Part shown: positions 19,470 through 32,000 of the stretch, in pieces
Position numbering within the stretch: position 1 is the stretch's first letter
Layout of the letters: the number at the start of each line of letters is the position of its first letter
DNA from: Planctomycetales bacterium
Lineage (GTDB): Bacteria > 4484-113 > JAFGCY01
Assembly (NCBI GenBank): GCA_022646745.1
Contig: CP060262.1
Location: 3,900,001 to 3,932,000, forward strand
DNA: 32,000 nt
Direction of reading: 5' to 3'
Made by a program: the position numbers and the translations under genes
Notes under the pieces: model-generated
Databases searched by the model: none
Told to the model about the DNA's origin: nothing
The model's input: only the letters and a program-made list of their open reading frames with translations

Positions 19470-21122
19470 ATGTTCAAACAAGCTGAACAGGATGGCCGGT
19501 TCTCCGAGGCAACCAAGGCATCACCGAATGTGCTGCCAGTCGACGCACGCATGTGTCCGGTTCCTGACAGCGCTGAACTGCTTTCGCAGACCGCCTCAAG
19601 TTTGGATGAAGGCCTGTGCATCATTGACAGTGATGGACGGCTGATCTTTGCAAATGAATCACTGCGCAAAATGGTCCATGAACAGCACTCGATCGAAGGT
19701 CGCTTGCTTCCCGATGTGATTCCGCACCATGAGCGCTTCAAGCTGCAGGTCCATATGAAGCGGATCTGCCGTGGTGAACGTCAGAGCCTTGAACTGACCC
19801 TGTCTGACATCAGCGGCCAGACACGCAATGTGCTGGTCAGCACCGGTCCGTGCCAGGATGCCGGAAGTGTATACAACTTCGTGATGTTCACTGACATCAC
19901 TTCCATCAGGCGCGCTGAGCAGGAAAAGCTCTACCTGATGGAACAGGTCCTCGGTTCCCGCCACATGGACCGGATCGGGACCCTTGCCGGCGGCCTGAGC
20001 CACGAGATGAACAATATCCTGCAGGTAATCCGCGCCAACGCCGAGTATTGCCAGCTGCTGGCTTCCGAGCCTGGAATGCCGCGGGAAAAACTGCAGGACA
20101 TCATTGCCAGCACCCAGCGGGCCGAACGGATCCTCAAGCAGTTGCTGAGCTTCAGCAAGGACGAGCAGCCGGATGGCAGCGAGTTCAGGATGTCTGAGCT
20201 TGTGCGTCGCGTGATAGGTGTTGCTGCCCTGAGGAAATCAATTCCAGCCGGATGCAGCCTCGAGCTACTTACCCAGAATGACCTGTTGAAGGCTGACGAG
20301 CAGCAGATTGAACAAGTACTGGTACAGCTGATCCGCAATGCGATGCAGTACCTCCCTGAAGAGTCCGGGATACTGCGGATCAGGCTGGCTGACCCGACTG
20401 AGAGCATGCTCGACCGCCTGCCGGTGGCTGACTGCCGGCTTGAGAACTACCTGCTGATTGAGGTCCAGGACAATGGTGCCGGGATCCCCGGTGAGTACAT
20501 CGACCGTATTTTCGACCCCTTCTTCACTACGCGGTCCGTTGGCCAGGGATTCGGCCTTGGTCTGACCATGGTGATGGGCATCGTAAGCTCCCTGGGTGGT
20601 GCAATCTGGGCCAGCCCAGTCCATGGAGGTGGAACATGCATCAGGATCATGCTGCGCCGGGTGCCTGCCAAGAGCACGGTTGAGCCTGTCGCACATGCAC
20701 TCGCACCAGAGTTCCGGGTGATGCTCGTCGATGATGAGGAGATGATACTGCGCCTTGGACGCCGCATGCTTATGAAATCCGGCATGGATGTTTTTGCAAC
20801 AACTGACCCGCATGAAGCACTGCATGAGCTGCAGACCAATGCAGGTTCGTATGCACTGCTAGTCACGGACCAGAACATGCCTGAATTCAATGGAATGGAC
20901 CTGGCTGAGGCTGCGCGCTATGCCAATCCCGAGATCAAGGTAGTGCTGTGCACGGGCTACACGCCGGACCTGGATGAGGAAAGAATATCCGAACTGGAGA
21001 TTGACGCAGTGCTGGCCAAGCCTTTTGACATCCACGAGCTAAGCAGGCTGGCACAGAAGTTGCTTGAAGCCGGGGCTGTGAACAGTGGCAGCTGTCCCGA
21101 TTCCGTTTACCGATCAGCCTGA
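19470..21122 (+). CDS. Cytoplasmic hybrid sensor histidine kinase (PAS - HisKA - HATPase_c - receiver)
   Basis: 550 aa with no TM segments. PAS-like region LDEGLCIIDSDGRLIFANESL. H-box GGLSHEMNNILQVI, N-box LIRNAMQY, G1 VQDNGAGIP, G2 GQGFGLGL. Receiver VMLVDDEEMI...LLVTDQNMPEFNGMDL...KPF. The start codon is uncertain because no clear SD is present. Confidence 0.88.
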   Translation: MFKQAEQDGRFSEATKASPNVLPVDARMCPVPDSAELLSQTASSLDEGLCIIDSDGRLIFANESLRKMVHEQHSIEGRLLPDVIPHHERFKLQVHMKRICRGERQSLELTLSDISGQTRNVLVSTGPCQDAGSVYNFVMFTDITSIRRAEQEKLYLMEQVLGSRHMDRIGTLAGGLSHEMNNILQVIRANAEYCQLLASEPGMPREKLQDIIASTQRAERILKQLLSFSKDEQPDGSEFRMSELVRRVIGVAALRKSIPAGCSLELLTQNDLLKADEQQIEQVLVQLIRNAMQYLPEESGILRIRLADPTESMLDRLPVADCRLENYLLIEVQDNGAGIPGEYIDRIFDPFFTTRSVGQGFGLGLTMVMGIVSSLGGAIWASPVHGGGTCIRIMLRRVPAKSTVEPVAHALAPEFRVMLVDDEEMILRLGRRMLMKSGMDVFATTDPHEALHELQTNAGSYALLVTDQNMPEFNGMDLAEAARYANPEIKVVLCTGYTPDLDEERISELEIDAVLAKPFDIHELSRLAQKLLEAGAVNSGSCPDSVYRSA

Positions 21123-21458
21123 AATCGAATTGTCACGAACAAAATCCACCAGCCGCGCGAATTCCTCGCGGAGTTCGGTGAATTTACGTTCTGCGCCGTC
21201 CAGGCTGTCCTCCCGTCCCATATGCTCTAGGTCCGCTGACAGTGCAGCCATCCTTGATGCAAGCAATTCTGCGCTGCTGCCCTTCACTGCGTGGGAATCC
21301 TGCCTGAGCTTCTGTGCATCCCCTGCTGCAATGCTGTTGCCGATTTCAGTGATCAGCCCTTCGCATACATCTATGTAGTCCTGCACGATCTCCTGCCAGA
21401 TCTCGGCATCCCCAAGACGTGCTATTCCTCCGGCAACATCAAGCGGTGACTGCTCCAC
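21114..21458 (-). CDS. Hpt (histidine phosphotransfer) domain protein
   Basis: 114 aa. The HAVKGSSAELLA motif matches HxxKG of Hpt four-helix bundles. GTG start with GGAG 6 nt upstream. The 3' end overlaps the convergent kinase gene by 9 nt (21114-21122). Confidence 0.75.
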   Translation of the reverse strand: MEQSPLDVAGGIARLGDAEIWQEIVQDYIDVCEGLITEIGNSIAAGDAQKLRQDSHAVKGSSAELLASRMAALSADLEHMGREDSLDGAERKFTELREEFARLVDFVRDNSISG

Positions 21459-21659: not shown

Positions 21660-22292
21660 ATGCTCAGACGCCGACTGGCATACATCATTCCCAGCCTGAC
21701 GCTGGTCATGACCGCGATGCTGTTCATCGCATGCGGTGGTAACGGTGGACCGATCCAGCAGGAGCAACTGAATGCCGCTCCCCAGGTGGACCGCCAGCTT
21801 CCGCAGCAGGAACAGCTTGCCGATGGGGCCGGCCTGCCCTTCGCAAATGGCGATGCGGGTTCAAACCTTGTCACCCTGCGTACACCGTCACTTGCTGAAC
21901 TGGGTGCCGGTGATGAATTCACGGTCCGGCTGGACGTGGACCTCCGTGAGGAAGTACACCAGGGTGTACTGCGACTGATGTTTGACAGCCAGGACATGCA
22001 GCCCGTCGAGGTTGTGCCGGGGTCCATGCTGCCCTCCGGCATGGTCCGGATTGCCGACCTCGACAAGCCGGGATTCATTCCGCTGGCCTTCACGGCCCTG
22101 CCGGGTGGCACTGACGTGGCCGCCGGCAGCGGTGAGCTGTTCAGCATTCGCTTCCGCCTGCTGAAGGCCGGCAATGAAGCCGGACGGATTTCCTTCATCA
22201 GTGACAACGACTTCCTGCAGCTGCGAGACCGCGATGGCGAGCGCCTGCGCTTCAACCTCGGAACCGAGGCGGGAGGCAGTGATGTCAATTAA
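21660..22292 (+). CDS. Lipoprotein with a cohesin-like domain
   Basis: 210 aa. Signal peptide plus lipobox LFIAC-GG. The remainder follows the cohesin pattern (GDEFTVRLDVDL...GVLRLMFDSQDMQPVEVVPGSML...GSGELFSIRFRLLKAG..GRISF). GAGG SD lies 7 nt upstream. Overlaps the next gene by 11 nt. Confidence 0.6.
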   Translation: MLRRRLAYIIPSLTLVMTAMLFIACGGNGGPIQQEQLNAAPQVDRQLPQQEQLADGAGLPFANGDAGSNLVTLRTPSLAELGAGDEFTVRLDVDLREEVHQGVLRLMFDSQDMQPVEVVPGSMLPSGMVRIADLDKPGFIPLAFTALPGGTDVAAGSGELFSIRFRLLKAGNEAGRISFISDNDFLQLRDRDGERLRFNLGTEAGGSDVN

Positions 22293-25200
22293 GCACATCC
22301 TCCTTCTCAGCATCCTTGCCATCCTGCTTGGCAGCAATGCCGCGCTTGCCACCTACCCGCCCCCGGAAGGCATGCTTGAGCGCATGGCGCAGGAAGGCAC
22401 CCTGGCCGATGCCCAGGAGTTTGCCCGCCAGCTTGGCAACCATGAAATGAAGCGTCCAAAGCGCGGAGCGCTGGACATTGACCAGTACAGCCCGCAGCAG
22501 GTCGCGGACCTGATTTCCGCAAACCTCGGTCGCAGCCTCGATGAGCGCACCACGAGCGAAGTCGGTAAGATGACCAGCACTGAGCTGGCCTGGGTCGAAC
22601 TGGACCTGAACCACGACGGGATGGTTGATGAGCGTGACCTGCTGGTGCTCGGCCATCCGCAACCGAAACAGACAGCCACGATCCCAAGCCTCGGCTACAA
22701 CAAGATGCTGACGATCCTGATCGAGTTCCCGGACTACCCGCAGTATTTCGATCCGCAGTCAATCCATGACGTCTGCTACAGCCCGACCCCGCTGCCGAAC
22801 TACCACCTTGGCAGCATGCGCTGGTTCTACGACCAGGCCAGCTATGGTGCATGCACCCTCGATGGCGACACCTTCGGCTGGTATATGGCACAGAACCCCC
22901 GCACCTACTACCATCCCGATGACAACAGCGGCGGAGGCAAGCGCGAGGAGCTGATCCTCGAGGCCTGTGACGCGGCCGATGCTGCGGGACTCGACTTCAA
23001 TGACTACGATAACGATGGCGACGGTGTAGTGGACGAATTCATCGTGATCTGGACCGGCCCGCATGGCGACTGGGCAACCTTCTGGTGGGGCTACCACACC
23101 GGGATGGGCAACGGCAAGACCTACGACGGCGTGCGCCTCGGCAGCTATTCCTGGCAGTGGGAGCGCGGCTACTACTTCAACAACGAACCCCCGACTCCCG
23201 ACATCTGGAGTGCGGACGTAGTGATCCACGAGACTGGCCACGGCTTCGGCCTGCCGGACTACTACGACTATGACGGCAGTGTCGGACCGGACGGCGGTGT
23301 TGGCTCAATGGACCGCATGGATGGTTACCGCGGTGAACATGGCTGCTTCTCCAAGTACATCCTCGGCTGGCTGCAACCGACGATCGCATACACGAACCTC
23401 GATGACGAAGCATTGGATGTGGCGGATGCCAACCCGGACTGCGTGCTGTTCATGCCGGGCTATGACCCGGCCACGCCCTGGGACGAATATTTCATGGCCC
23501 AGAACCGCGGGCGCGGCGGGATCGACTACCAGATGCCAACGGACGGCGTGCTGATCTGGCATGCTGATGCCCGCCTGAATGCAGGTGGTGGCTTCCTGTT
23601 CAACAACAGCTATACCGACCACAAGCTGATCCGCCTGATGGAAGCTGACGGACTCGAGGAGATCGAGAACGGCCCGAACCACAGCGGTGATGCAGGCGAC
23701 TACTATGACCTCGGCGAAAGCCTCGCTCCCGGCACGACTCCCAGCAGTGACGGATACGATGCCCCGACCGGCATGGTGGTGGACGACATCTCGGCTGACG
23801 GCGCCACGATGACGGCGGACTTCACGCTTTACCCGACCGCCCCGCCGACGGTGACCCTCAGTGGAATCACACCGGGCAGCACGGTCAGTGGCAACGTTCC
23901 GCTGACGATCACGACGACCTCAGCTGCGGGTATAGCGGAGATCCAGCTCTGGGTGGATGGAGTACTGGTGGACGTGAAGACCGGTTCCGGCAGCTCCACT
24001 CCGCTGTGGAACACGCTGGTGGACTTCAACAAGACGATGGACGTGATGGCCCGGGCCTACGATGTGAATGGCCAGAGCGCCACTGACACCGTGAGCGTCA
24101 CTGTCAGCAACAGCGGCGTGGTGAGCTTTGCCGACTACTTCAACATCGGCTTCAAGCTGTGGCGCAGCATCAACTTCCCGGACGTGCGCCGCGGCACCTG
24201 GACACAGTGGGAGACCCGGGCCTGCCCGGCCAGCCCGCCGCCGATCTCCGGTGGCAACGAGGCCTACGTGGCCCCGATGCTGAATGACAATGAGTGGCAC
24301 AACGCGCTGGACAACCTGCGCAGCCAGCGTGTCAACGCGGTGGACTTCGAATACCTCGTGAGCATCAGCTTCGAGTACCGCGCCCGTGACGGATTCTCCC
24401 TGTGGTACACGACTGACGAGGGGCAGAACTGGACCCTGCTTGACAACCTCACGCAGACGAACGACTGGTCCACCTACAACCGGGTGGTGGACCTGCGCGG
24501 CAGCCAGTTCTACCTGGAGTTCCGCTACAGCGGCAACGTGCGCGGTGATAACCAGAGCGGCCGTGGGGCGAACATCGACAACATCAGCGTGCATGAGGCT
24601 CCGAGTGACCCGCCGACCGTGCAGATCACGAGCCACGTTGATGGCGACCACATCAGCAACAGTACACTGTTCACGGCGGACGCGAACGACGACTTCGGCA
24701 TCGATCACGTGGATTTCTACGTGAATGGCGGACTGGCCTTCACTGACAGCGAGGCGCCGTATGAATACGAACGCAATCTGGTCAACGATGACAACCGCCC
24801 GGACATCCCGGTCAGGGTGGTCGCCACCGACAGTGACGGCCTGACCAGTGTGCCGGACGAGGTCGCGATCAGCTGGGACACGGAGCGCCCGTTCCCACTG
24901 TTTGACGACTGTGAGATCAGCGATGACACAGGCCCGAACGCCTGGTCATTCCAGAATGGCGGAAGCTCAGTACCGAACTGGCAGTGGAGCACGGCGGACG
25001 CTTTCAGCGGCGTGCAGTCGATGGCCTGGACCGGCGACGGCAGCTTCTCCGGTGACAGTGAGGGCGTCTGGTTCTGGGGCAGCCGCGGGGTGAGCGAGGG
25101 CCGGATCTGCGTCGACCTTGCCAACCCGAAGGTCGTGGATCCGGTGCTGCGCTACAAGATGACAGGAAACTTCCCGGATGGCAGCGGCCGCGGCCTGTAC

Positions 25201-25680
25201 CTCTACACCACATGGTATGGCTGGGAGCAGATCGGTGGCTGGGGTGACAACTGGGCTGAGTGGACCGATGTTGAGTTCGACCTGTCAGGCCGCATCGGCC
25301 ACAGTGGCCGCATCGTCTGGTGGGTGTTCGGCTCCAGTGGCGACGCAGCCGGCATCTGGCTTGATGATGTTGAGGTCACGAATGCCACTCCGGTGATTGA
25401 CAGCATCAGCCCAGGCATCGCGATTGACGGCGAGATCATCACCCTGAGCGGACTGGGCTTCAGCAGCTGCGACATCTCGAAGCAGCTCAACTTCACCGAG
25501 GGAACCGTGCTGATGCCGCTGGACGTCGTGAGCTGGACCGATGAGGAGATCCAGTTCGCCGTACCTGCCGGGGCGCGCGGTGGCAACCTGAGCGTGACCG
25601 TCAACGGCCGCCAGAGCAATGAGGTGAGCCTTGTTGTCAGGCTGGCCAGCCCGCAGCTGACGGAGATCGGCGGACTGTAA
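22282..25680 (+). CDS. Secreted multidomain M6-family (immune inhibitor A-like) zinc metalloprotease with an N-terminal dockerin/EF-hand repeat and C-terminal Ig-like, jelly-roll (MAM/CBM-like) and IPT/TIG modules
   Basis: I chose the ATG at 22282 (MSIKHILLLSILAILLGSNAALA signal peptide, GGAGG 5 nt upstream). The 22174 track start adds a non-signal extension overlapping the previous gene. Dockerin-like loop DLNHDGMVDERD at 22603-22638. Zinc site VIHETGHGFGLPDYYD (HETGH at 23227-23241). LIRLMEADGLEEIENG block. Two units of the PPTV...G..ATD.V.V Ig-like type. C-terminal IPT/TIG-like segment ISPGIAIDGEIITLSGLGF...LSVTVNGRQSNEVSLVV. Confidence 0.85.
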   Translation: MSIKHILLLSILAILLGSNAALATYPPPEGMLERMAQEGTLADAQEFARQLGNHEMKRPKRGALDIDQYSPQQVADLISANLGRSLDERTTSEVGKMTSTELAWVELDLNHDGMVDERDLLVLGHPQPKQTATIPSLGYNKMLTILIEFPDYPQYFDPQSIHDVCYSPTPLPNYHLGSMRWFYDQASYGACTLDGDTFGWYMAQNPRTYYHPDDNSGGGKREELILEACDAADAAGLDFNDYDNDGDGVVDEFIVIWTGPHGDWATFWWGYHTGMGNGKTYDGVRLGSYSWQWERGYYFNNEPPTPDIWSADVVIHETGHGFGLPDYYDYDGSVGPDGGVGSMDRMDGYRGEHGCFSKYILGWLQPTIAYTNLDDEALDVADANPDCVLFMPGYDPATPWDEYFMAQNRGRGGIDYQMPTDGVLIWHADARLNAGGGFLFNNSYTDHKLIRLMEADGLEEIENGPNHSGDAGDYYDLGESLAPGTTPSSDGYDAPTGMVVDDISADGATMTADFTLYPTAPPTVTLSGITPGSTVSGNVPLTITTTSAAGIAEIQLWVDGVLVDVKTGSGSSTPLWNTLVDFNKTMDVMARAYDVNGQSATDTVSVTVSNSGVVSFADYFNIGFKLWRSINFPDVRRGTWTQWETRACPASPPPISGGNEAYVAPMLNDNEWHNALDNLRSQRVNAVDFEYLVSISFEYRARDGFSLWYTTDEGQNWTLLDNLTQTNDWSTYNRVVDLRGSQFYLEFRYSGNVRGDNQSGRGANIDNISVHEAPSDPPTVQITSHVDGDHISNSTLFTADANDDFGIDHVDFYVNGGLAFTDSEAPYEYERNLVNDDNRPDIPVRVVATDSDGLTSVPDEVAISWDTERPFPLFDDCEISDDTGPNAWSFQNGGSSVPNWQWSTADAFSGVQSMAWTGDGSFSGDSEGVWFWGSRGVSEGRICVDLANPKVVDPVLRYKMTGNFPDGSGRGLYLYTTWYGWEQIGGWGDNWAEWTDVEFDLSGRIGHSGRIVWWVFGSSGDAAGIWLDDVEVTNATPVIDSISPGIAIDGEIITLSGLGFSSCDISKQLNFTEGTVLMPLDVVSWTDEEIQFAVPAGARGGNLSVTVNGRQSNEVSLVVRLASPQLTEIGGL

Positions 25681-25690
25681 GCAGGAAGGG

Positions 25691-26875
25691 TCAGGCGCCC
25701 TGGCTTGTGATCGGCAGTCCTACACGCCACAGCGTGACCGGCAGGTTGGTCTGCACACTGAGGTCGACGAGCCAGCACTGGCGGTCGTGCGCCGGGATTA
25801 TACGCATGCCTGTCTGCAAGCCCTGGTACAGCCAGAGCCGGTTGCCTGCGGAGTCATAACAGAACAGCAGTCCGGTGACGGGGGTTGCCACCATTGATGT
25901 TGCATTTGGAGATCCGGCAGTGGGATCCGGATACTCCGCCGGGAAACCGCTTACGAATGTCTCACCGTTGAGGCCAGCCACGATGTCACGCACGACGAGA
26001 TCATCCGGCCACCGGAGTGCAAGCGACTGCCCATCAGCATCGAGGCCCTGCAAGCCATCGCCGATCCGCAGCCACAGGTTGCCTCCGCTGCTGCGCAATT
26101 CCCTGATCTCTGCTCCTGGCAATGCATTCCAAAGCACTTCGCCGGATGGATCCGCGCACTCCACACCGCCGTCAATTGCGGGATAGGCAATCCTCCCCGC
26201 ATCCAGCAGGCCGGCATGGTGGCTGGCACTGTACTTCTTCCAGCGCAGTTCACCCTCCAAGTCCAGGCAGTACAGGAACCCGTCGTCACTTGCCGCATAG
26301 GCATTGCCATCATCCAGCAGCAGGCGGGCCGGCGCTCCCATCAGGAAATTCCATTGCTCCTGCCCTTCGTAACTGAAACAGGTCACGGACTGTTCAAGGA
26401 TCGTCGTCAACAGCACATCATCCAGCAATATACATGTGTCGGCAGCGGGATACTGCGAACCGGGCCAGAATGGCTCCGGTGTCCAGAGTTCACCGCTGCG
26501 GGCGAAGCCGGTATCCGGGACATCGTTGCGCCAGACCTCGAGGTAGCCGTCTCGCCGGGTTGTTGCCAGCCAGCCGTCCGGTCCCAGCAGCAGTTCACGG
26601 TCGGCCAGCACCTCCTGGTCGGGCAGCATCATCGGCCGGCTGCCGTAGTAGTTCCAGCCACCCAGTGAGGCATCGTCCTCAATCAGTCCATCGTTGAAGT
26701 TCATCATCACTCGCAGCCGGTTGCCGGCCTGCAGCTGGTAATGGCCGCCGGGGTAATCGCCACTGGCCAGCTCCATCGCCTTTGGCACGCGGCTCTTGCC
26801 AGCCTGCCCGCTGCAGCCTGTAAGCAGGCTGATTGAAATGAGAACTGCGAACGAAAAACTTGCCAGCCGGCTCAT
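25691..26875 (-). CDS. Lipoprotein, PQQ-like (BamB-type) beta-propeller repeat protein; paralog P1
   Basis: 394 aa. Lipobox SLLTGC-SG. Repeated blades such as CFSYEGQEQWNF, LYCLDLEGELRWKK, VECADPSGEVLWNA, LFCYDSAGNRLWLY. The start overlaps the P2 stop by 4 nt. Confidence 0.7.
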   Translation of the reverse strand: MSRLASFSFAVLISISLLTGCSGQAGKSRVPKAMELASGDYPGGHYQLQAGNRLRVMMNFNDGLIEDDASLGGWNYYGSRPMMLPDQEVLADRELLLGPDGWLATTRRDGYLEVWRNDVPDTGFARSGELWTPEPFWPGSQYPAADTCILLDDVLLTTILEQSVTCFSYEGQEQWNFLMGAPARLLLDDGNAYAASDDGFLYCLDLEGELRWKKYSASHHAGLLDAGRIAYPAIDGGVECADPSGEVLWNALPGAEIRELRSSGGNLWLRIGDGLQGLDADGQSLALRWPDDLVVRDIVAGLNGETFVSGFPAEYPDPTAGSPNATSMVATPVTGLLFCYDSAGNRLWLYQGLQTGMRIIPAHDRQCWLVDLSVQTNLPVTLWRVGLPITSQGA

Positions 26876-28098
26876 CGCGCACCTCCCAGCCTGCAGATGC
26901 GGTCAGGCCCGTCATCGCTGACAAGCAGCAGCTTGTCCTCGCCAAAACCGTAGATGCGGTCGCAGTGCAGTTCCAGCCAGACCGGCACATTGACCGGCAC
27001 GCTGAGGGCCGCGGTTTCAAGCTGCAACTGCAGAGTCCCCGCGCTGGATGAAGATACGTAAGCGAACTCGAAGTCCGGCAACTCGCCACGCATCATCCCG
27101 CTGAGCATGCCTGGCAGGCCTGCCAGCAGCGGATACTGCGCGCGGCCGGCATACATCAGCAGCTGGTCATCCTGGATCGCCGTGCCATCCAGCAGGTACA
27201 GCTCGCTCAGTTCAGTGCTGCGTGTCTCGGTCCCATCCACGCTGTAGCGTGCATACTTGCCATCCCGGAAGCGGGCGATGCCATCCTCTGTCAGCCAGCA
27301 GTACCTGCTTGGTCCGGCGCTGTAACTGCTGAGCTGGCCCAGCTGACTGGCAACAAGCTTCCCGTCCAGCCTGCTGAGGCTGGTGCTCCTGCCCCGCTCC
27401 AGCACCATGCCACTTTCGGCCAGCTCAATCCCGGAGACATCCCAGATGTTGCCACCTCCGACCAGCTCCATCTGCCCGTCCCGACTGACCCGCACACGTC
27501 CGCCATTGGAGACAGTCTGCAGGTTTCCCTCACTGTCCACCTCCATCCAGGGCCGGCTGGCCAGAATAGATGTCGCATTGGGTATCCTGCGGACCCAGAG
27601 CTTCTTGCCATTGGCATCAAGCCCGTAAACCAGGGCGGTTGCCATAGTGAAGAATGTCGCCTGCGCTTCGTTGCCTCGACGCACGCGAGTATGCATTTCA
27701 TTGTGTACAGGCTCGTAACGCCAGGATTCCGATCCCTCTGCATCGATTGCGATAGCCCTGCCATAGCGACCGGTCAGCACCATCAGGCCATCCCCTGCCT
27801 GCACGCTGCTGAGTGTGAAATGGGCCGGTGCCGCGAATTGCCAGTCCAGCCTGCCTTCCGTGCTGATCCGCGTTATTCGGCCGGAACGCTCCTGCAGTAC
27901 CAGGCCGCCCAGTCCATCGTCAATCGGTTCAAGCAGCAGCTCGCCGAAATCCGGATCGCCAAGTGTATGCAGGCTCAGCAGTTCATTCGGACTGAACAGG
28001 CGGGATGCAAGCATCATCAGCATGCCGGCCAACCAGCAAAGCAGCAGCGCGGCACTCACCATCACGGCCCTGCGTTGCCAGCGCTGCATTGTATCCAT
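26872..28098 (-). CDS. N-terminally membrane-anchored beta-propeller repeat protein; paralog P2
   Basis: 408 aa. Signal-anchor AVMVSAALLLCWLAGMLMMLA. Blades ISTEGRLDWQF, AIAIDAEGSESWRY, VYGLDANGKKLWVR. The C-terminal block LHCDRIYGFGEDKLLLVSDDGPDRICRL is shared with P4. Confidence 0.7.
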   Translation of the reverse strand: MDTMQRWQRRAVMVSAALLLCWLAGMLMMLASRLFSPNELLSLHTLGDPDFGELLLEPIDDGLGGLVLQERSGRITRISTEGRLDWQFAAPAHFTLSSVQAGDGLMVLTGRYGRAIAIDAEGSESWRYEPVHNEMHTRVRRGNEAQATFFTMATALVYGLDANGKKLWVRRIPNATSILASRPWMEVDSEGNLQTVSNGGRVRVSRDGQMELVGGGNIWDVSGIELAESGMVLERGRSTSLSRLDGKLVASQLGQLSSYSAGPSRYCWLTEDGIARFRDGKYARYSVDGTETRSTELSELYLLDGTAIQDDQLLMYAGRAQYPLLAGLPGMLSGMMRGELPDFEFAYVSSSSAGTLQLQLETAALSVPVNVPVWLELHCDRIYGFGEDKLLLVSDDGPDRICRLGGAR

Positions 28099-28109
28099 GA
28101 CCTGATTCT

Positions 28110-28136
28110 AGCTCAGCGGGGCACTGTCCCTGAGCT
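28110..28136 (-). other. Strong intercistronic hairpin between propeller modules
   Basis: On the minus strand, AGCTCAGGG-ACAGTG-CCC(G)CTGAGCT forms 10 bp with one bulge. It lies between the P3 stop (28172) and the P2 start (28098). No T-tract. Confidence 0.45.
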
Positions 28137-28171
28137 TTCCCTCCCATTACATGACTGGATCACCAACAGTG

Positions 28172-29311
28172 TTACTCGGGTGCGGAAAGCAGGACGAGGC
28201 CCTGCTTATCCTGCGTTGCGGTAAACAAGGTGCCATTGCTTCCGGTATGGGCAAAATAGGGGTAACCTTCCATCTTTTCACCGCGCCAGAGTACCTTTCC
28301 CTGTGGATTGATGCACAGCCAGTGGAAGGGAGTATTCACACGGTTTGCTATCCGGCCCCCAAACCAGCTGTTGCGGAAATCCCTGTCATAGATCCTCAAA
28401 AAGGTGTATCCATCCCTGGAAAGCTCCAAACTGGACCAGCCAATTGATTCCAGCCTGCAGCGCCAGAGCCGCTTTCCATCCGCATCGTAGCAATCAACCC
28501 CCCAGCTCCGCTGGATCGCAAATCGATTTCCGGCATCATCGACTTTTGCATACACGTGGCCCAGCTTCTCACCGGAGTGATCCTGGATCCAGAGTTCCGT
28601 TCCTTCCCAATCCAGGCATACGAGGTTCAGTGAATCAGATCCCGTGACAAGTATCCTGTCACCGAAGGCCTGAGCCTGCTGCACACCCTTGCGGGTCCAG
28701 CTGACCCGCCCCTGGCTGTCCAGGCAGGCAAGCTCCCCGTCCCGCCCGAACACCAGCAGGTGCTGGTAGTCCTGCGACTGGCTGAAGCTGATCATGTATC
28801 CGCCCATGTATTCCCAGCTGGGATTGCCCTGCTGGTCAAATCCGACAATCTGCTGCTGGTCATACATCACGAACGGATCCGTTCCGAGGAAGCCCATGCT
28901 GCCATCCTGGCCGGAGTACCTGACAAAGTTGCCAGAACTTCCATCAGATGCGGTATCCGGCCGACTCAGCAATACTGAGTCATTGCCACGGTCGCTGAAA
29001 ACGAGCCGCACCCCGCCACTGGGCCCGTTGTCGGGGAAGAGGTACTGTCCGTCCGGCCCCGCTACCATCTCGGTCAGCTGGCTCGAATAGACCGGGTAGC
29101 CCTGTTGCGATGCCTGGCTGGCGGTTGGCTTGTCACCTGCCTCCTTCTCCGCATCGATGCTGAGCATGCCGCTGCCCTGCCAGTTGAGCACAGTATTGTC
29201 ATCTGAAACAAGCATCGGCCCGAGCACATTCAGTTCACGCTCCATGGCAACAGGAACCCTGCCGCAGGATACCAGTAGCAGCAATGCCATCAACAGGACA
29301 GCGCTATACAT
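28172..29311 (-). CDS. Lipoprotein, PQQ-like beta-propeller repeat protein; paralog P3
   Basis: 379 aa. Lipobox LLLVSC-GR. Blades IVGFDQQGNPSWEY, LACLDSQGRVSWTR, LVCLDWEGTELWIQ, VDCYDADGKRLWRC, LCINPQGKVLWRG. The start overlaps the P4 stop by 8 nt. Confidence 0.7.
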   Translation of the reverse strand: MYSAVLLMALLLLVSCGRVPVAMERELNVLGPMLVSDDNTVLNWQGSGMLSIDAEKEAGDKPTASQASQQGYPVYSSQLTEMVAGPDGQYLFPDNGPSGGVRLVFSDRGNDSVLLSRPDTASDGSSGNFVRYSGQDGSMGFLGTDPFVMYDQQQIVGFDQQGNPSWEYMGGYMISFSQSQDYQHLLVFGRDGELACLDSQGRVSWTRKGVQQAQAFGDRILVTGSDSLNLVCLDWEGTELWIQDHSGEKLGHVYAKVDDAGNRFAIQRSWGVDCYDADGKRLWRCRLESIGWSSLELSRDGYTFLRIYDRDFRNSWFGGRIANRVNTPFHWLCINPQGKVLWRGEKMEGYPYFAHTGSNGTLFTATQDKQGLVLLSAPE

Positions 29312-30599
29312 CGGCAGCCTCCAGCGCCAGGCACCTGAGCTGCTTGTCGTTGCTGATCAGGTAGATCCGGTCCTTGCTGCAGTGCATCGCCGAGAAGCCG
29401 TTGAAGTTCTGCCCGCTGCCGATATCCAGTGCAGCCAGCCTCTCCCCTTCGCGGATCACTTCCAAGCGGAACACCTGGGACTGCTGCAGCCTCGGATTCA
29501 GCTGGCCGGCAGCCGGCGAAGCGAAAGGCAGGGCTGCAGAGACCATGGGAAACAAGGCGGACAGGTGTTCCAGTGCGGTCAGCAGGTTGTCAGTCCTGCC
29601 CGTCACCAGTGCGAATGCATCCCCCAGGTCCTGGGCATCCGAAACACTGCCGGCTTCAAGTGGAATGCTCCATTGCTCCTCAAGCTGGTAGTCCAGCGCA
29701 CGCACCACGGCATCACTGGTCGGCACGAGGATCAGCCCGGCTGAACTGGCAACCTGGTTGGGACTGATGTAGAAACCGGGCGATGTACCCAGCTGATTGA
29801 TCTTCTTGTGGATCTGCTCCCCGTCCCTGACCAGGCAGAGCTGGTTGCCACCGGAGTACAGCAGTTCGCCGTTGCCGACAACTCCACGCAGGTCCAGTAT
29901 CTCCCCGCTGAAGTAGATCTGCTGTCCACCGGCCGTCTTCGCGGGAGTTTTCGGCTTGCTGGGACGTTCGAGCGGAATGCGCTCGCCACTAATTGTGTAA
30001 ATGCTCACGCTGGAGAAATCGTTGCACAGGAAGCTGTAGCTGCCGGCGTACTCGAAATAGCTTGGCAGCCCAAACGGGTCATACATCTGCCTGGTATTGA
30101 CAACCCAGCATGGCTCGCCGGCCGCGCTGATTCCGTAGAGCAGGATGCCCTGCTTGAGGAAGGCGACCGCCTGGCTGCCTTCCCGTGGCTCAAGCAATTC
30201 ACGGTACCGCTGCGGATCGGGCCGGCAGTTCCACAGTTCCTGTCCCTGTGCATCGAGGGCAAGCAGCTCACCCTTGCCTGTGGTCAGGTAGGTGATGGCA
30301 TCTACCCGCTGGATCGGTGAGCGGATACTGTCAATCGTGTGCTCCCGGCTCCATAACACCCTGCCATCGGGAGTGATCATCTGGAGCTGTCCGGCCAGCA
30401 TGTCCTGGGTGTAGACAAGGCAGCCATCTTCGGATGCATCCACTACGGCACACCATGTCGCATCAAGCTGCCTGCTCCAGAGCTGCGTGAGCCCACTGTC
30501 CCTGCCGATTGCCAGCCTGAGCGTAATCCAGCCAGCCGCCCACAGCACGGCGTAAACTGCAATTGCCAGCACCATTTTCCGGTGGATCCTGCTTGCCAT
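29304..30599 (-). CDS. N-terminally membrane-anchored beta-propeller repeat protein; paralog P4
   Basis: 431 aa. Signal-anchor MVLAIAVYAVLWAAGWITL. Blades MITPDGRVLWSR, LLALDAQGQELWNC. C-terminal block MHCSKDRIYLISNDKQLRCLALEAA. AGGGAA lies upstream of the ATG. Confidence 0.7.
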   Translation of the reverse strand: MASRIHRKMVLAIAVYAVLWAAGWITLRLAIGRDSGLTQLWSRQLDATWCAVVDASEDGCLVYTQDMLAGQLQMITPDGRVLWSREHTIDSIRSPIQRVDAITYLTTGKGELLALDAQGQELWNCRPDPQRYRELLEPREGSQAVAFLKQGILLYGISAAGEPCWVVNTRQMYDPFGLPSYFEYAGSYSFLCNDFSSVSIYTISGERIPLERPSKPKTPAKTAGGQQIYFSGEILDLRGVVGNGELLYSGGNQLCLVRDGEQIHKKINQLGTSPGFYISPNQVASSAGLILVPTSDAVVRALDYQLEEQWSIPLEAGSVSDAQDLGDAFALVTGRTDNLLTALEHLSALFPMVSAALPFASPAAGQLNPRLQQSQVFRLEVIREGERLAALDIGSGQNFNGFSAMHCSKDRIYLISNDKQLRCLALEAADV

Positions 30600-30697
30600 G
30601 TTTCCCTGCCAGTCCCTGCAAAGATGCCCGTTCAGTTATTGCTCCGGGCAAACAATGGTTCAATTGTAAATCAGGACGCTGCCGGACCGTCCCGGGT

Positions 30698-31879
30698 TCA
30701 GAAGCCACGCCACATGGAACCCGGCGGGCCATGGAAGGTGAGTACGCTGTTGTTCCCCACCTCGAACTGGCCGATCAGACCACCGGAGAAGGTCAGGGCT
30801 CCGTGGCTGCGCACCATCTCCCCATCGGCGGCCTGCCAGATGACCTGCCCGTCGGGATCCACACAGAACCCAAGCTCAGAGATGCGGAACGGGAACATCC
30901 CTTCGCGCTCGACAGAGCCGTTGTAGGCTTGCTGGTAACGGACAAAGGCAAACATATGACCGTCCGGCGCACCAACGAAGTAGGAGAAGCCGGTGTCGCC
31001 AACCGGCAGTTCGGTACGCCACAGCTCCTCACCTGCCGTGCTGATGCATAGTGCGGTCCTGCGATAATCGTGAGCAAAAATCCGTCCATTGGACACGGCG
31101 GTCGGCAGGCAGGTAATGTCCATCTCGAGCTCCCATAGCAGCTTGCCATCGCTGTCCAGGGCTCGAAGCCTGCCGTCAGTGCTGTAACCGTAGAAGCTGC
31201 TGCCATCCGTCACGCAGCTCTGCATTTCGGGATTGCTCCAGAGCAATTCTCCGTTCCCGTCCAGCGCAAGGATCATCCCGTAGAAGCAGCTGATATACAG
31301 CCTTTCCCCATTCGTACTCGATTGGAGTTGGGCATTGCTCCCTACATTGAATTCCCAAAGCGGATTGCCCTGCAGGTCGAATGCTCCGAGCATCTGTGCG
31401 TCATCGTCGGCAATCACCACCATCCCGTCCAGGAACGCCGCCTCATTGCCAAACTGGCAGTCAAAGGAACGGCCATAGGTTGACAGCGTAAGTTCGGTTT
31501 CCAGCGGCACCATCACGGACGGGTCCGCCCGCGACACAAGCAGGGGCCGGGAGTATGAATCAGTGATGGCCAACCAGTCGTCATTCCAGCCGCGGATCTC
31601 GAGTCGACCGGGATTGAATGTCATTTCCGAGCCATCCGGCCAGACGGCATCCATGCCTGTACCCTGTGCAATCAGCTGCTCCGGTTCACCGGGCACCATG
31701 CGATAAAGGCTGAAAGTCGGCATGTCCAGTGAAAGGATGCTGCCATCCTCCAGCTCGGCATAGTAGTAACCGGAGAGGGAGTAACTGCGCGTGTCTGATG
31801 CCGGCAGCACTTCAGGCTGGGCTTGCAACATAGCTGATGGGATGGCAACAAGCAGCAGTGCGATGACGAGCGCTTTCAT
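30698..31879 (-). CDS. Secreted PQQ-like beta-propeller repeat protein; paralog P5
   Basis: 393 aa. Sec signal MKALVIALLLVAIPSAMLQA with no lipobox Cys. Blades LGAFDLQGNPLWEF, ILALDGNGELLWSN, LRALDSDGKLLWEL, LCISTAGEELWRT, CVDPDGQVIWQA. GGAGG lies 8 nt upstream. The ATG overlaps the upstream stop (ATGA). Confidence 0.7.
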   Translation of the reverse strand: MKALVIALLLVAIPSAMLQAQPEVLPASDTRSYSLSGYYYAELEDGSILSLDMPTFSLYRMVPGEPEQLIAQGTGMDAVWPDGSEMTFNPGRLEIRGWNDDWLAITDSYSRPLLVSRADPSVMVPLETELTLSTYGRSFDCQFGNEAAFLDGMVVIADDDAQMLGAFDLQGNPLWEFNVGSNAQLQSSTNGERLYISCFYGMILALDGNGELLWSNPEMQSCVTDGSSFYGYSTDGRLRALDSDGKLLWELEMDITCLPTAVSNGRIFAHDYRRTALCISTAGEELWRTELPVGDTGFSYFVGAPDGHMFAFVRYQQAYNGSVEREGMFPFRISELGFCVDPDGQVIWQAADGEMVRSHGALTFSGGLIGQFEVGNNSVLTFHGPPGSMWRGF

Positions 31880-32000
31880 AGTCCCGCCTCCAGACCATAT
31901 ACCCAGACGCCTTGCCTCGCATGCCAGACCACTATGCCTCCTCCCGCAATCGCTGACATGTGATAGTCCTCGGAAAGTACGGGGCCAAACAGCGACTGCT
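31876..32000 (-). CDS. 3' end of a further paralog (P6), truncated by the window edge
   Basis: The minus-strand frame reads ...QSLFGPVLSEDYHMSAIAGGGIVVWHARQGVWVYGLEAGL-TGA. The ending GLEAG resembles the P4 ending ALEAA. The stop overlaps the P5 ATG by 4 nt. It is not in the ORF track because fewer than 60 codons are visible. Confidence 0.5.
   Translation of the reverse strand, partial: QSLFGPVLSEDYHMSAIAGGGIVVWHARQGVWVYGLEAGL

What the first reader, a model, noticed from the sequence alone, without database searches (positions are those of the whole stretch)
25691..32000. Tandem array of at least 6 paralogous beta-propeller genes built from a triplicated, translationally coupled two-gene module (membrane-anchored propeller then lipoprotein or secreted propeller)
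Six consecutive minus-strand genes (P6 partial, then P5 to P1) all carry PQQ/BamB-type blades, in which a hydrophobic strand is followed by D/N-x-x-G-x-x-x-W. They alternate in N-terminus. P4 and P2 have uncleaved-looking signal anchors. P3 and P1 have lipoboxes (LVSC, LTGC). P5 has a Sec signal. Each anchored gene overlaps its downstream partner (P6/P5 by 4 nt as ATGA, P4/P3 by 8 nt, P2/P1 by 4 nt), whereas modules are separated by gaps of 98 and 73 nt. The anchored members share a distinctive C-terminal block (P4 MHCSKDRIYLISNDKQLRCLALEAA; P2 LHCDRIYGFGEDKLLLVSDDGPDRICRL; P6 ends GLEAGL). P3 and P5 share blades (IVGFDQQGNPSWEY versus LGAFDLQGNPLWEF). This indicates duplication of a pair rather than of single genes, which argues that each pair acts as a unit, for example an inner-membrane-tethered partner plus an outer-leaflet or periplasmic partner. 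I know of no characterised system with this organisation. The array may continue beyond the window, and it looks somewhat lower in GC than the housekeeping genes by eye.
Basis: partly seen in the sequence, partly recalled or inferred. Interest (0 to 1): 0.68.

Follow-up and report, generated by a model that had tools for sequence, protein, structure and literature searches.

The report
Paired beta-propeller gene array, four modules
An uncultured bacterium carries eight exported BamB-like beta-propeller genes arranged as four two-gene modules (a membrane-anchored propeller followed by a lipoprotein propeller), an arrangement found so far in this lineage only, whose module number and content vary between relatives and whose function is unknown.

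Summary
P1 to P5 and the 3' end of P6 lie on the minus strand with the stated overlaps (4, 8 and 4 nt) and gaps.

All are PQQ-like (BamB-type) beta-propeller proteins. None is a BamB orthologue or a PQQ enzyme.

Public contigs of the same species show the array is exactly eight genes, in four modules. A highly conserved 115-aa orphan gene (UpX) precedes it.

Two classes are robust (94% bootstrap):
- **Class A** has an N-terminal transmembrane anchor with a conserved WxxG motif.
- **Class B** is a lipoprotein.
- **P6 and P5** are the exceptions; both have cleavable-type signals.

Relatives carry one, two, three or four A-to-B modules at the same syntenic site. Orthologous modules are inherited as pairs. 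Two strains differ by a swapped cassette, comprising the ectodomain of the head A gene plus its B gene.

Each B gene has a GGAGG inside the 3' end of its A gene. Most A genes have TA[GC]AAT exactly 6 nt before the ATG, as leaderless mRNAs do.

Pair duplication is therefore supported. Physical A-B interaction and function remain inferred. I rate this a new variant of a known kind, of moderate interest.

The parts
25691..26875 (-). P1, class B lipoprotein propeller (394 aa, lipobox LTGC, Cys21). It is the last gene of the array and converges on the M6 protease gene.
   Evidence: Orthologues are Q1 (49%), V1B and T1. NCBI name: 'PQQ-binding-like beta-propeller repeat protein'.
26872..28098 (-). 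P2, class A propeller (408 aa) with an N-terminal TM anchor carrying WLAG. With P1 it forms the module present in every relative with an intact locus.
   Evidence: Orthologues are Q2 (49%), V2A (38%), P0024 and P0120. NCBI name: 'hypothetical protein'.
28172..29311 (-). P3, class B lipoprotein propeller (379 aa, lipobox LVSC, Cys16).
   Evidence: Orthologue Q3 at 44%.
29304..30599 (-). P4, class A propeller (431 aa, or 423 aa from the ATG at 30575, where the orthologues start). The TM anchor carries WAAG.
   Evidence: PQQ_2 32.5 bits; helix 2-23 followed by beta-strands.
30698..31879 (-). P5, class B variant (393 aa) with a signal-peptidase-I type signal (LQA|QP) and no lipobox. The allele is divergent between strains.
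   Evidence: (PQQ_2 47.2 bits). It is 78% identical to R5, with dS 0.98.
31876..32000 (-). C-terminal 40 codons of P6 (class A variant; 390-399 aa in full, with a cleavable-type signal).
   Evidence: The full sequence is in L003 and L013.
26882..26886 (-). GGAGG Shine-Dalgarno for P1, inside the P2 3' end. The ATGA overlap lies at 26872-26875.
29318..29322 (-). GGAGG Shine-Dalgarno for P3, inside the P4 3' end (it encodes the L-E-A of P4). The 8-nt overlap lies at 29304-29311.
   Evidence: The 8-nt overlap is kept in L011.
31887..31891 (-). GGAGG Shine-Dalgarno for P5, inside the P6 3' end (it encodes the L-E-A of P6). The ATGA overlap lies at 31876-31879.
28105..28110 (-). TAGAAT, a -10-like hexamer exactly 6 nt before the P2 ATG, with no Shine-Dalgarno. 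It is a candidate leaderless-mRNA promoter.
   Evidence: The same GAGCTAGAATCAG..CATG is conserved before the P2 orthologues in L011 and L021.
30663..30668 (-). TACAAT, a -10-like hexamer in the P5-P4 gap, 64 nt before the P4 ATG at 30599. It is a candidate module promoter with a leader.
   Evidence: This is weak evidence: a consensus match only.

Best explanation
The region is the distal three-quarters of an eight-gene array that sits directly downstream of a small gene, UpX, on the same strand: UpX, then [P8/P7], [P6/P5], [P4/P3], [P2/P1].

It is built from a repeated, self-contained bicistronic module:
- **First gene (class A).** A BamB-sized PQQ-like beta-propeller held in the cytoplasmic membrane by an uncleaved N-terminal helix with a conserved WxxG motif. 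It is probably translated from a leaderless mRNA that starts at its own -10 element.
- **Second gene (class B).** A lipoprotein PQQ-like beta-propeller. Its ribosome-binding site and start codon are embedded in the end of the class A gene, so the two are made together.

**Shown:**
- gene structure, the two classes, the export signals and the coupling signals;
- purifying selection on P1 to P5;
- conservation of the module as a unit in relatives carrying one to four copies;
- a cassette swap of the A ectodomain plus its B gene between strains.

**Inferred:** each A and B pair forms a cognate 1:1 complex in the periplasm, tethered by the anchor helix and the lipid. The pairs act as non-catalytic binding or scaffold modules of the cell envelope, as BamB, YxaL and other PQQ-like propellers do. 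Paralogous modules would have diversified in what they bind. What they bind is unknown.
For: **Gene structure and coupling.** Coordinates and overlaps. PQQ-like propeller identity.

**Two classes.** (BLAST matrix; class B has an N-terminal extension of about 100-130 aa; class A has a central insertion of about 90 aa; 94% bootstrap; profiles alignable over only about 96 columns, probability 96%).

**Export signals.** In class A, 16 of 17 sequences have WxxG inside an uncharged N-terminal segment of 14-30 aa (19-25 aa in 14 of them). In class B, 12 of 13 intact sequences have a Cys at position 16-21 directly after the hydrophobic region; Q1's apparent position 35 reflects its uncertain start. 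Nine match the lipobox pattern I used and three (ATSC, SAAC, LPAC) I judged by eye.

**Expression signals.** GGAGG lies 7-8 nt before the P1, P3 and P5 start codons. In relatives the corresponding site is weaker (GGAG or G-rich) or absent. ATGA or 8-nt overlaps occur in 5 lineages. TA[GC]AAT lies at -12..-7 of 8 class A genes from 6 loci, while the hexamer occurs only 5 times in the 64 kb of both strands of the window. This geometry is typical of leaderless genes (PMC3160421, PMC3898074, PMC4007540).

**Selection.** dN/dS is 0.15-0.36 for P1 to P5.

**Comparative evidence.** The array is exactly 8 genes, by consecutive accessions UNM08293-08302 and by L013. Module counts are 1, 2, 3 and 4 at one syntenic site between UpX and the M6 protease gene. 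Orthologous A and B genes are co-inherited (Mantel r=0.69, p=0.0005). The cassette swap is bounded just after the TM-coding segment and about 35 nt before P6.
Against: - No direct evidence of an A-B interaction.
- Module P6/P5 has neither the WxxG anchor nor a lipobox.
- P5 was replaced by a 78%-identical allele while its partner P6 stayed 97.7% identical. Strict co-variation of partners is therefore not obligatory.
- The mirror-tree signal vanishes among non-orthologous modules (r=0.13, p=0.36).
- The two-hexamer sigma-70 scan found no promoter in 25000-32000.
- Leaderless-type hexamers also precede unrelated genes in the window, so that feature belongs to the organism and not to the array.
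- The envelope type is not verified. The taxonomy rests on a submitter's label, 'Planctomycetales bacterium', and on a contig label, '4484_113'.
Confidence: 0.55

Rival explanations
1. The pairing has no functional meaning. These are ordinary lineage-specific tandem paralogues of exported PQQ-like propellers that act independently. The alternation and the overlaps are inherited from one ancestral two-gene operon and kept by operon compaction.
For: - Large families of BamB-like paralogues are known in Planctomycetes (28 in Tuwongella immobilis, PMC8567305).
- There is no mirror-tree signal among deep paralogues.
- P5 was replaced without P6.
- P6/P5 breaks the anchor/lipoprotein rule.
Against: - Strict A-to-B order occurs in every module of 6 lineages, with retained 4- or 8-nt overlaps, at 30-50% protein identity.
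- No solitary A or B gene was seen at any intact locus.
- The cassette swap takes the A ectodomain and the B gene together.
Confidence: 0.17
2. It is a polymorphic envelope or surface recognition system. The head modules are exchangeable cognate cassettes under diversifying pressure from phages, competitors or kin discrimination. This is analogous in layout to toxin-immunity or receptor cassettes that follow a conserved N-terminal segment.
For: - Two strains with 98.9% identical UpX and 97.8% identical P6 carry head modules with about 40% DNA identity and about 27% protein identity. The breakpoint lies right after the shared TM-coding 97 nt.
- The P5 allele has dS 0.98, against about 0.1 for its neighbours.
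- Relatives have different head modules, and one has an IS30-like insertion there.
Against: - Only two alleles were seen.
- dN/dS is below 0.4 for every pair measured (P1 to P5); the swapped head-module alleles are too divergent to test.
- The P8/P7 type is old: it has orthologues in L021.
- No toxin, immunity or defence domain was found.
- Surface exposure is not shown.
Confidence: 0.12
3. The class B lipoproteins are BamB-type accessory subunits of the outer-membrane beta-barrel assembly machine, and class A proteins are their inner-membrane-tethered partners.
For: - The best structural matches are E. coli BamB chains (E 1e-10 to 1e-12).
- The size (379-394 aa), the lipoprotein signal and the PQQ_2 repeats are the same as in BamB.
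Against: - The TIGR03300 BamB equivalog model scores 14.7-27.8 bits against a cut-off of 285.2.
- Solved archaeal and designed PQQ propellers match much better than BamB by sequence.
- The genomic context lacks the TPR-protein/GTPase neighbourhood seen around the genuine BamB hit P0003.
- Four paralogous pairs, and variable copy number between strains, are unlike a core machine subunit.
Confidence: 0.08
4. They are enzymes: PQQ-dependent dehydrogenases, or propeller-type lyases or hydrolases acting on envelope or extracellular substrates.
For: - Weak hits to the lambda-carrageenase propeller (PF25292; 26.9 bits for P1, at its cut-off) and to PQQ dehydrogenase models.
- Distant Foldseek hits to virginiamycin B lyase and tetrathionate hydrolase.
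Against: - TIGR03075 scores 13.9 bits against a cut-off of 480, and PF01011 is below its cut-off.
- The proteins are about 200 aa shorter than quinoprotein dehydrogenases.
- No conserved candidate catalytic residues emerged: only Trp and Gly of the blade motif are invariant.
Confidence: 0.05

Closest known systems
BamB (YfgL), lipoprotein subunit of the BAM complex
   Same: Class B proteins are lipoproteins of about 380-395 aa built of PQQ_2-type blades. The best structural matches of both predicted models are BamB chains.
   Different: - They fail the BamB equivalog model by more than 250 bits.
- There are multiple divergent copies.
- Each is coupled to a membrane-anchored paralogue.
- The genomic context differs from that of the true BamB hit P0003.
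- BamA binding was not tested.
Expanded 'BamB-like' PQQ propeller families of Planctomycetes (for example 28 paralogues in Tuwongella immobilis, PMC8567305)
   Same: A lineage-specific multiplication of exported PQQ-like propellers of unknown function. GenBank already names P1, P3, P4, P5 and P7 'PQQ-binding-like beta-propeller repeat protein'.
   Different: - Here the copies are organised as alternating two-class bicistronic modules at one locus.
- Module number is variable.
- Class A is a distinct clade that NCBI's annotation leaves as 'hypothetical' for the two class A proteins checked other than P4 (P2 and R8).
- I found no description of such an organisation in four literature searches.
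Stand-alone PQQ-like propellers with solved structures: Methanococcus 3HXJ, the Cake/Scone/Bagel designs derived from such blades, and Bacillus YxaL
   Same: These are the closest by sequence profile (E 1e-58 to 1e-11). They share the blade motif and are non-catalytic or binding proteins.
   Different: Those are single soluble or secreted proteins. None is reported as an anchored-plus-lipoprotein pair.
Polymorphic toxin/immunity cassettes (CDI, Rhs; PMC3482391)
   Same: The layout of variation is alike. A conserved 5' segment is followed by a divergent remainder, plus a tightly coupled downstream partner gene, exchanged as one cassette between strains.
   Different: No toxin or immunity domain was found, and both partners are homologous propellers. 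The resemblance is one of evolutionary pattern only.

Membership tests
PQQ-like beta-propeller repeat proteins (Pfam PQQ_2 PF13360 and relatives) | Score above the family's gathering cut-off (27.6 bits) for single sequences | tested here: inconclusive
   P4 scores 32.5 and P5 47.2, so both pass. P1 scores 26.6, just below. P2 and P3 are not detected by PQQ_2.
PQQ-like beta-propeller repeat proteins (Pfam PQQ_2 PF13360 and relatives) | Profile-level homology of both classes to solved PQQ-like propellers, and the repeated strand-D/N-x-x-G-x-x-x-W blade motif | tested here: met
   The class B profile matches Cake9 at 2.7e-58, 3hxj at 8e-24, YxaL at 2e-14 and BamB at 3e-10. The class A profile matches Cake9 at 3e-32, 3hxj at 7e-17 and BamB at 5e-6. 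There are 3-5 canonical motifs per protein.
PQQ-like beta-propeller repeat proteins (Pfam PQQ_2 PF13360 and relatives) | Closed propeller fold of about 8 blades | tested here: inconclusive
   The AF2 models are all-beta with about 30 strands, and their top Foldseek hits are 8-bladed BamB and Cake8-10. However, mean pLDDT is 59 and 53 and TM-scores are 0.4-0.5. Only P4 residues 30-160 and P5 residues 150-310 are confident.
BamB (outer membrane protein assembly factor, TIGR03300 equivalog) | Score at or above 285.2 bits on the equivalog model | tested here: not met
   14.7-27.8 bits for P1 to P5.
BamB (outer membrane protein assembly factor, TIGR03300 equivalog) | Binding to BamA POTRA domains | not testable with these tools
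   No multimer prediction was available, and the genome's BamA is not in hand.
PQQ-dependent alcohol/glucose dehydrogenases | Match to TIGR03075 or PF01011 above cut-off, and a length of about 550-600 aa | tested here: not met
   TIGR03075 scores 13.9 against 480. PF01011 scores 10-15 against 26.7. Lengths are 379-431 aa.
Bacterial lipoproteins (class B) | Lipobox [LVI][ASTVI][GAS]C at the end of a signal peptide | tested here: met
   A pattern search found P1 LTGC (Cys21), P3 LVSC (Cys16) and P7 LSAC. In all, 12 of 13 intact class B N-termini have a lipoprotein-type Cys after the hydrophobic region: nine match the pattern and three were judged by eye. P5 is the exception. SignalP and LipoP were not available.
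Translationally coupled bicistronic unit | Stop/start overlap plus a ribosome-binding site inside the upstream gene | tested here: met
   ATGA, ATGTATAG and ATGA overlaps, with GGAGG 7-8 nt upstream of each class B start. Overlaps are conserved in L011, L013, L014, L015, L021 and L023. Actual coupling was not measured.
Leaderless mRNA genes (class A) | A -10 element TAnnnT ending about 6-8 nt before the start codon, with no Shine-Dalgarno | tested here: met
   TA[GC]AAT lies at -12..-7 for P2, P6, Q2, V4A, V2A and the class A genes of L015, L016 and L023. TATGCT lies at -14 for P8, R8 and Q6. P4 and Q4 have none. The criterion follows PMC3160421 and PMC3898074. Transcription starts are not testable here.
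Polymorphic toxin-immunity systems | A recognisable toxin domain with a cognate immunity gene | tested here: not met
   No toxin, immunity or defence family was found in Pfam, NCBIfam or PADLOC. Only the cassette-swap pattern resembles these systems.

The most novel reading that the evidence does not exclude
The locus is a modular, recombining set of cognate envelope receptor pairs. Each cassette, with its own promoter, encodes a membrane-anchored propeller and its lipoprotein partner, which recognise each other and a specific external or envelope ligand. New cassettes are added or swapped between the ultra-conserved UpX gene and the older modules, giving strains different recognition repertoires (phage or competitor avoidance, kin recognition or substrate capture). 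UpX would be the conserved cytoplasmic component, reached through the conserved WxxG anchor helices.
Probability: 0.12. Interest if true: 0.75.

Novelty: new variant of a known kind. Interest (0 to 1): 0.45.

Why it matters
Exported PQQ-like (BamB-like) propellers are among the most expanded protein families of unknown function in Planctomycetes-like and other uncultured bacteria. This locus offers two things.

1. It gives a clean, comparative handle on them: a defined two-class, two-gene unit with its own expression signals. Its copy number runs from 1 to 4 in related genomes, and its head cassette differs between strains. That makes testable the idea that these propellers work as anchored-plus-lipoprotein heterodimers.
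2. It identifies a new class A subfamily. NCBI's annotation left the two class A proteins checked other than P4 (P2 and R8) as 'hypothetical'. It also identifies an 80-95% conserved orphan protein, UpX, linked to the array.

It does not reveal a new mechanism by itself.

Tried and rejected
- **Genome-contig scan with P5.** It found no relative. The second scan, with a P4 alignment, found only MAG AC1.30.
- **Word-indexed homologue searches.** These returned very few relatives. P0002 (haloarchaeal locus) and P0003 (a true BamB beside a TPR protein and a GTPase gene) are generic PQQ propellers, not family members.
- **The 4.1-Mb genome.** The far end of the array was rebuilt from L003, L013 and L017 and from accession order.
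- **The apparent split of P2 in L002.** This is a run of N in a scaffold, not a pseudogene.
- **Mirror-tree test among non-orthologous modules.** No signal.
- **First bootstrap script.** It timed out and was redone.
- **Rfam on the conserved UpX leader.** Nothing found.
- **Sigma-70 two-hexamer scan.** No promoter, and only one weak terminator inside P5.
- **UpX.** No Pfam, NCBIfam, PDB or PADLOC match.
- **JGI metagenome scan with UpX.** Only one short locus.
- **Lower GC as a sign of foreign origin.** Rejected, because GC3 equals that of neighbouring non-housekeeping genes and synteny is conserved.
- **Fast evolution of the propellers.** Rejected. The HK neighbour is equally divergent (53% against 43-50%). 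It is UpX and the M6 protease that are unusually conserved.

Full report

Six-frame ORF listing confirms five complete minus-strand genes and the 3' end of a sixth, at exactly the stated positions:
- P1 25691-26875
- P2 26872-28098
- P3 28172-29311
- P4 29304-30599
- P5 30698-31879
- P6 (C-terminus) 31876-32000

The overlaps are ATGA, ATGTATAG and ATGA. The gaps are 73 and 98 nt.

Pfam PQQ_2 passes its cut-off for P4 (32.5 bits) and P5 (47.2). P1 is just below (26.6), and P2 and P3 are not detected by it. Profiles of both gene classes nevertheless match solved PQQ-like propellers strongly: Cake designs, Methanococcus 3HXJ, YxaL and BamB, at E 1e-58 to 1e-6. Each protein has 3-5 canonical D/N-x-x-G-x-x-x-W blades.

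AlphaFold models built on very shallow alignments are all-beta but of low confidence (mean pLDDT 59 and 53). Only about 130-160 residues of each are confident. Their best PDB matches are BamB and designed 8-10-bladed PQQ propellers.

The proteins are not BamB orthologues: TIGR03300 scores 15-28 bits against a cut-off of 285. They are not quinoprotein dehydrogenases either.

**2. Extent and source**

Public contigs carrying identical or near-identical proteins extend the locus beyond the window. GenBank accessions run consecutively: UNM08293 (M6 protease), UNM08294-08301 (P1 to P8) and UNM08302 (a 115-aa protein I call UpX). They lie on a 4,112,261-bp contig.

The array is therefore exactly eight genes in four modules, headed by UpX and ending convergent on the M6 metalloprotease gene.

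The submitter's label for the MAG is 'Planctomycetales bacterium'. A related contig is labelled with the candidate phylum name 4484-113. I could not verify either label.

GenBank already names P1, P3, P4, P5 and P7 'PQQ-binding-like beta-propeller repeat protein', and names P2 'hypothetical'.

**3. Two classes**

The all-against-all BLAST matrix, the 16-sequence alignment and a neighbour-joining tree of 26 sequences with 300 bootstraps agree.
- Class A (P2, P4, P6, P8 and relatives) separates from class B plus the BamB and archaeal outgroups in 94% of replicates.
- Class B alone is recovered in 50% of replicates, so it sits close to generic PQQ propellers.
- Class B has an N-terminal extension of about 100-130 residues.
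- Class A has a central insertion of about 90 residues.
- The two profiles align confidently over only about 96 columns.

The N-termini also follow the classes.
- 16 of 17 class A sequences have WxxG inside an uncharged N-terminal segment (19-25 aa in 14 of them). Conservation of this motif at 20-25% overall identity argues that the segment is a retained anchor.
- 12 of 13 intact class B sequences have a lipoprotein-type Cys at position 16-21 (Q1 once its uncertain start is allowed for).
- Module P6/P5 is the exception. P6 has VAMA|QDD and P5 has LQA|QP, which are cleavable-type signals.

**4. Expression signals**

P1, P3 and P5 each have GGAGG 7-8 nt upstream, inside the 3' end of the preceding class A gene. 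The site is weaker or absent before several class B genes of relatives.

Eight class A genes from six loci have TA[GC]AAT exactly 6 nt before the ATG and no Shine-Dalgarno. P8-type genes have TATGCT 8 nt before the ATG. P4-type genes have neither.

The hexamer occurs only five times in both strands of the window. Three of those are on the coding strand of the array.

This geometry is the recognised signature of leaderless mRNAs (PMC3160421, PMC3898074, PMC4007540). It also precedes hemW, nth and another gene in the window, so the organism probably uses leaderless mRNAs widely.

Each module thus looks like an autonomous cassette: a promoter, a leaderless A gene and a coupled B gene. This is inferred from sequence. 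The two-hexamer promoter scan found nothing.

**5. Comparative evidence**

The same locus, between UpX and the convergent M6 protease gene, was found in several lineages.

| Locus | Modules |
|---|---|
| L014 | 1 (P2/P1 type) |
| L021 / L022 | 2 (P8/P7 type and P2/P1 type) |
| MAG AC1.30 (L011) | 3, with an IS30-like insertion in the head module |
| Window species and strain L013 | 4 |

Fragments L015, L016 and L023 show the same A-to-B order.

Every A-to-B junction is a 4- or 8-nt overlap wherever the start is clear. Orthology is concordant for the partners:
- P2 to Q2 to V2A alongside P1 to Q1 to V1B;
- P4 to Q4 alongside P3 to Q3;
- P8 to V4A alongside P7 to V3B.

The similarity matrices of the A and B genes correlate (Mantel r=0.69, p=0.0005). 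That signal comes from the orthologous groups, and it vanishes among seven non-orthologous modules (r=0.13, p=0.36).

A profile search of 1.84 billion representatives found only about eight full-length class A relatives. The other hits are giant multi-repeat proteins matching two or three blades. Class A is therefore a narrow, lineage-specific subfamily.

**6. Dynamics within the species**

Window against L013 gives dN/dS of 0.15-0.36 for P1 to P5, so the genes are under purifying selection.

The identities along the locus are strikingly uneven.

| Region | Identity between the two strains |
|---|---|
| UpX | 98.9% DNA |
| First 97 nt of the head class A gene (N-terminus and TM) | shared |
| Rest of the head A gene plus its B gene | about 40% DNA, about 27% protein |
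| From about 35 nt before P6 | homology resumes |
| P6 | 97.8% DNA |
| Mature part of P5 | 77% DNA (dS 0.98) |
| P4 to P1 | 95-96% DNA |

So a cassette consisting of the A ectodomain plus the B gene has been exchanged. P5 has been exchanged on its own.

The apparent split of P2 in one scaffold is only a run of N.

**7. Interpretation**

*Shown:*
- a four-module array of exported PQQ-like propellers;
- two classes with distinct export signals;
- coupling signals;
- module-wise inheritance, gain and swap.

*Inferred:*
- A and B form a cognate complex in the periplasm, tethered by a membrane helix and a lipid anchor;
- the complex acts as a non-catalytic binding scaffold, by analogy with BamB, YxaL and other PQQ-like propellers;
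- paralogous modules differ in specificity.

I put about 0.55 on this. The rivals are:
- independent paralogues with no pairing function (0.17);
- a polymorphic recognition-cassette system (0.12);
- genuine BAM accessory subunits (0.08);
- enzymes (0.05).

**8. Novelty**

Expansions of BamB-like propellers in Planctomycetes are documented (PMC8567305), and several of these genes already carry generic names. Four literature searches turned up no description of any of the following:
- the alternating anchored/lipoprotein bicistronic module;
- its variable copy number;
- the class A subfamily;
- the link to UpX.

I rate it a new variant of a known kind, of moderate interest.

Noticed in passing
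Outside the window, about 3.7 kb beyond its end: L013 1011-1358, L011 5954-6301, L014 9560-9907, L021 3800-4147, L016 683-1027: UpX is a 115-aa cytoplasmic orphan protein (MQIVYIEPHYYAVDRGTG...CWEMIHDYC...WLEQWPH...VWEEH). It lies directly upstream of the first class A gene in every locus. It is 80-95% identical between lineages whose propellers are 30-50% identical, and about 50 nt of its upstream leader are identical between L013 and L011. It has no Pfam, NCBIfam, PDB, PADLOC or Rfam match.
   Followed up: partly
window 21660-22292 (+) and 22282-25680 (+): A 210-aa protein with a near-threshold Cohesin match (22.4 bits against 24.1) overlaps the start of the M6 (InhA-like) metalloprotease gene. 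The protease's N-terminal region has a dockerin/EF-hand-like loop (DLNHDGMVDERDLL). The two could be a cohesin-dockerin pair. The pair sits beside the array in all relatives examined.
   Followed up: partly
L013 1382-3744 against L017 3699-5773 plus L003 1-2381: There is a strain-level cassette replacement of the head module (P8/P7 against R8/R7, about 27% protein identity). The breakpoints lie just after the shared TM-coding segment and about 35 nt before P6.
   Followed up: yes
window 30698-31779 (mature part of P5): The P5 allele is 77% identical in DNA to that of strain L013 (dS 0.98), while the flanking genes are 95-98% identical. Divergence starts after the signal-peptide codons. This points to homeologous recombination affecting P5 alone.
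   Followed up: yes
L011 7853-8821: An IS30-like transposase gene (HTH_38 + rve) is inserted between Q6 and Q5 in MAG AC1.30. Q5 appears N-terminally truncated.
   Followed up: no
window: upstream of hemW (15542, -), nth (19281, -) and the 232-aa gene (18579, -): TAnnnT hexamers lie 5-8 nt before these start codons, with no Shine-Dalgarno. This suggests that leaderless mRNAs are common in this organism.
   Followed up: partly
window 21114-21458 (-) and 19470-21122 (+): A small Hpt-domain gene converges on, and overlaps by 9 nt, the 3' end of a hybrid PAS histidine kinase/receiver gene. Both are syntenic in the relatives.
   Followed up: no
window 28111-28137 (-), in the P3-P2 gap: An inverted repeat, AGCTCAG-N13-CTGAGCT, abuts the TAGAAT hexamer before P2. 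The 3' arm plus hexamer (TGAGCTAGAATCAG) is conserved in L011 and L021, but the 5' arm is not obviously conserved.
   Followed up: no
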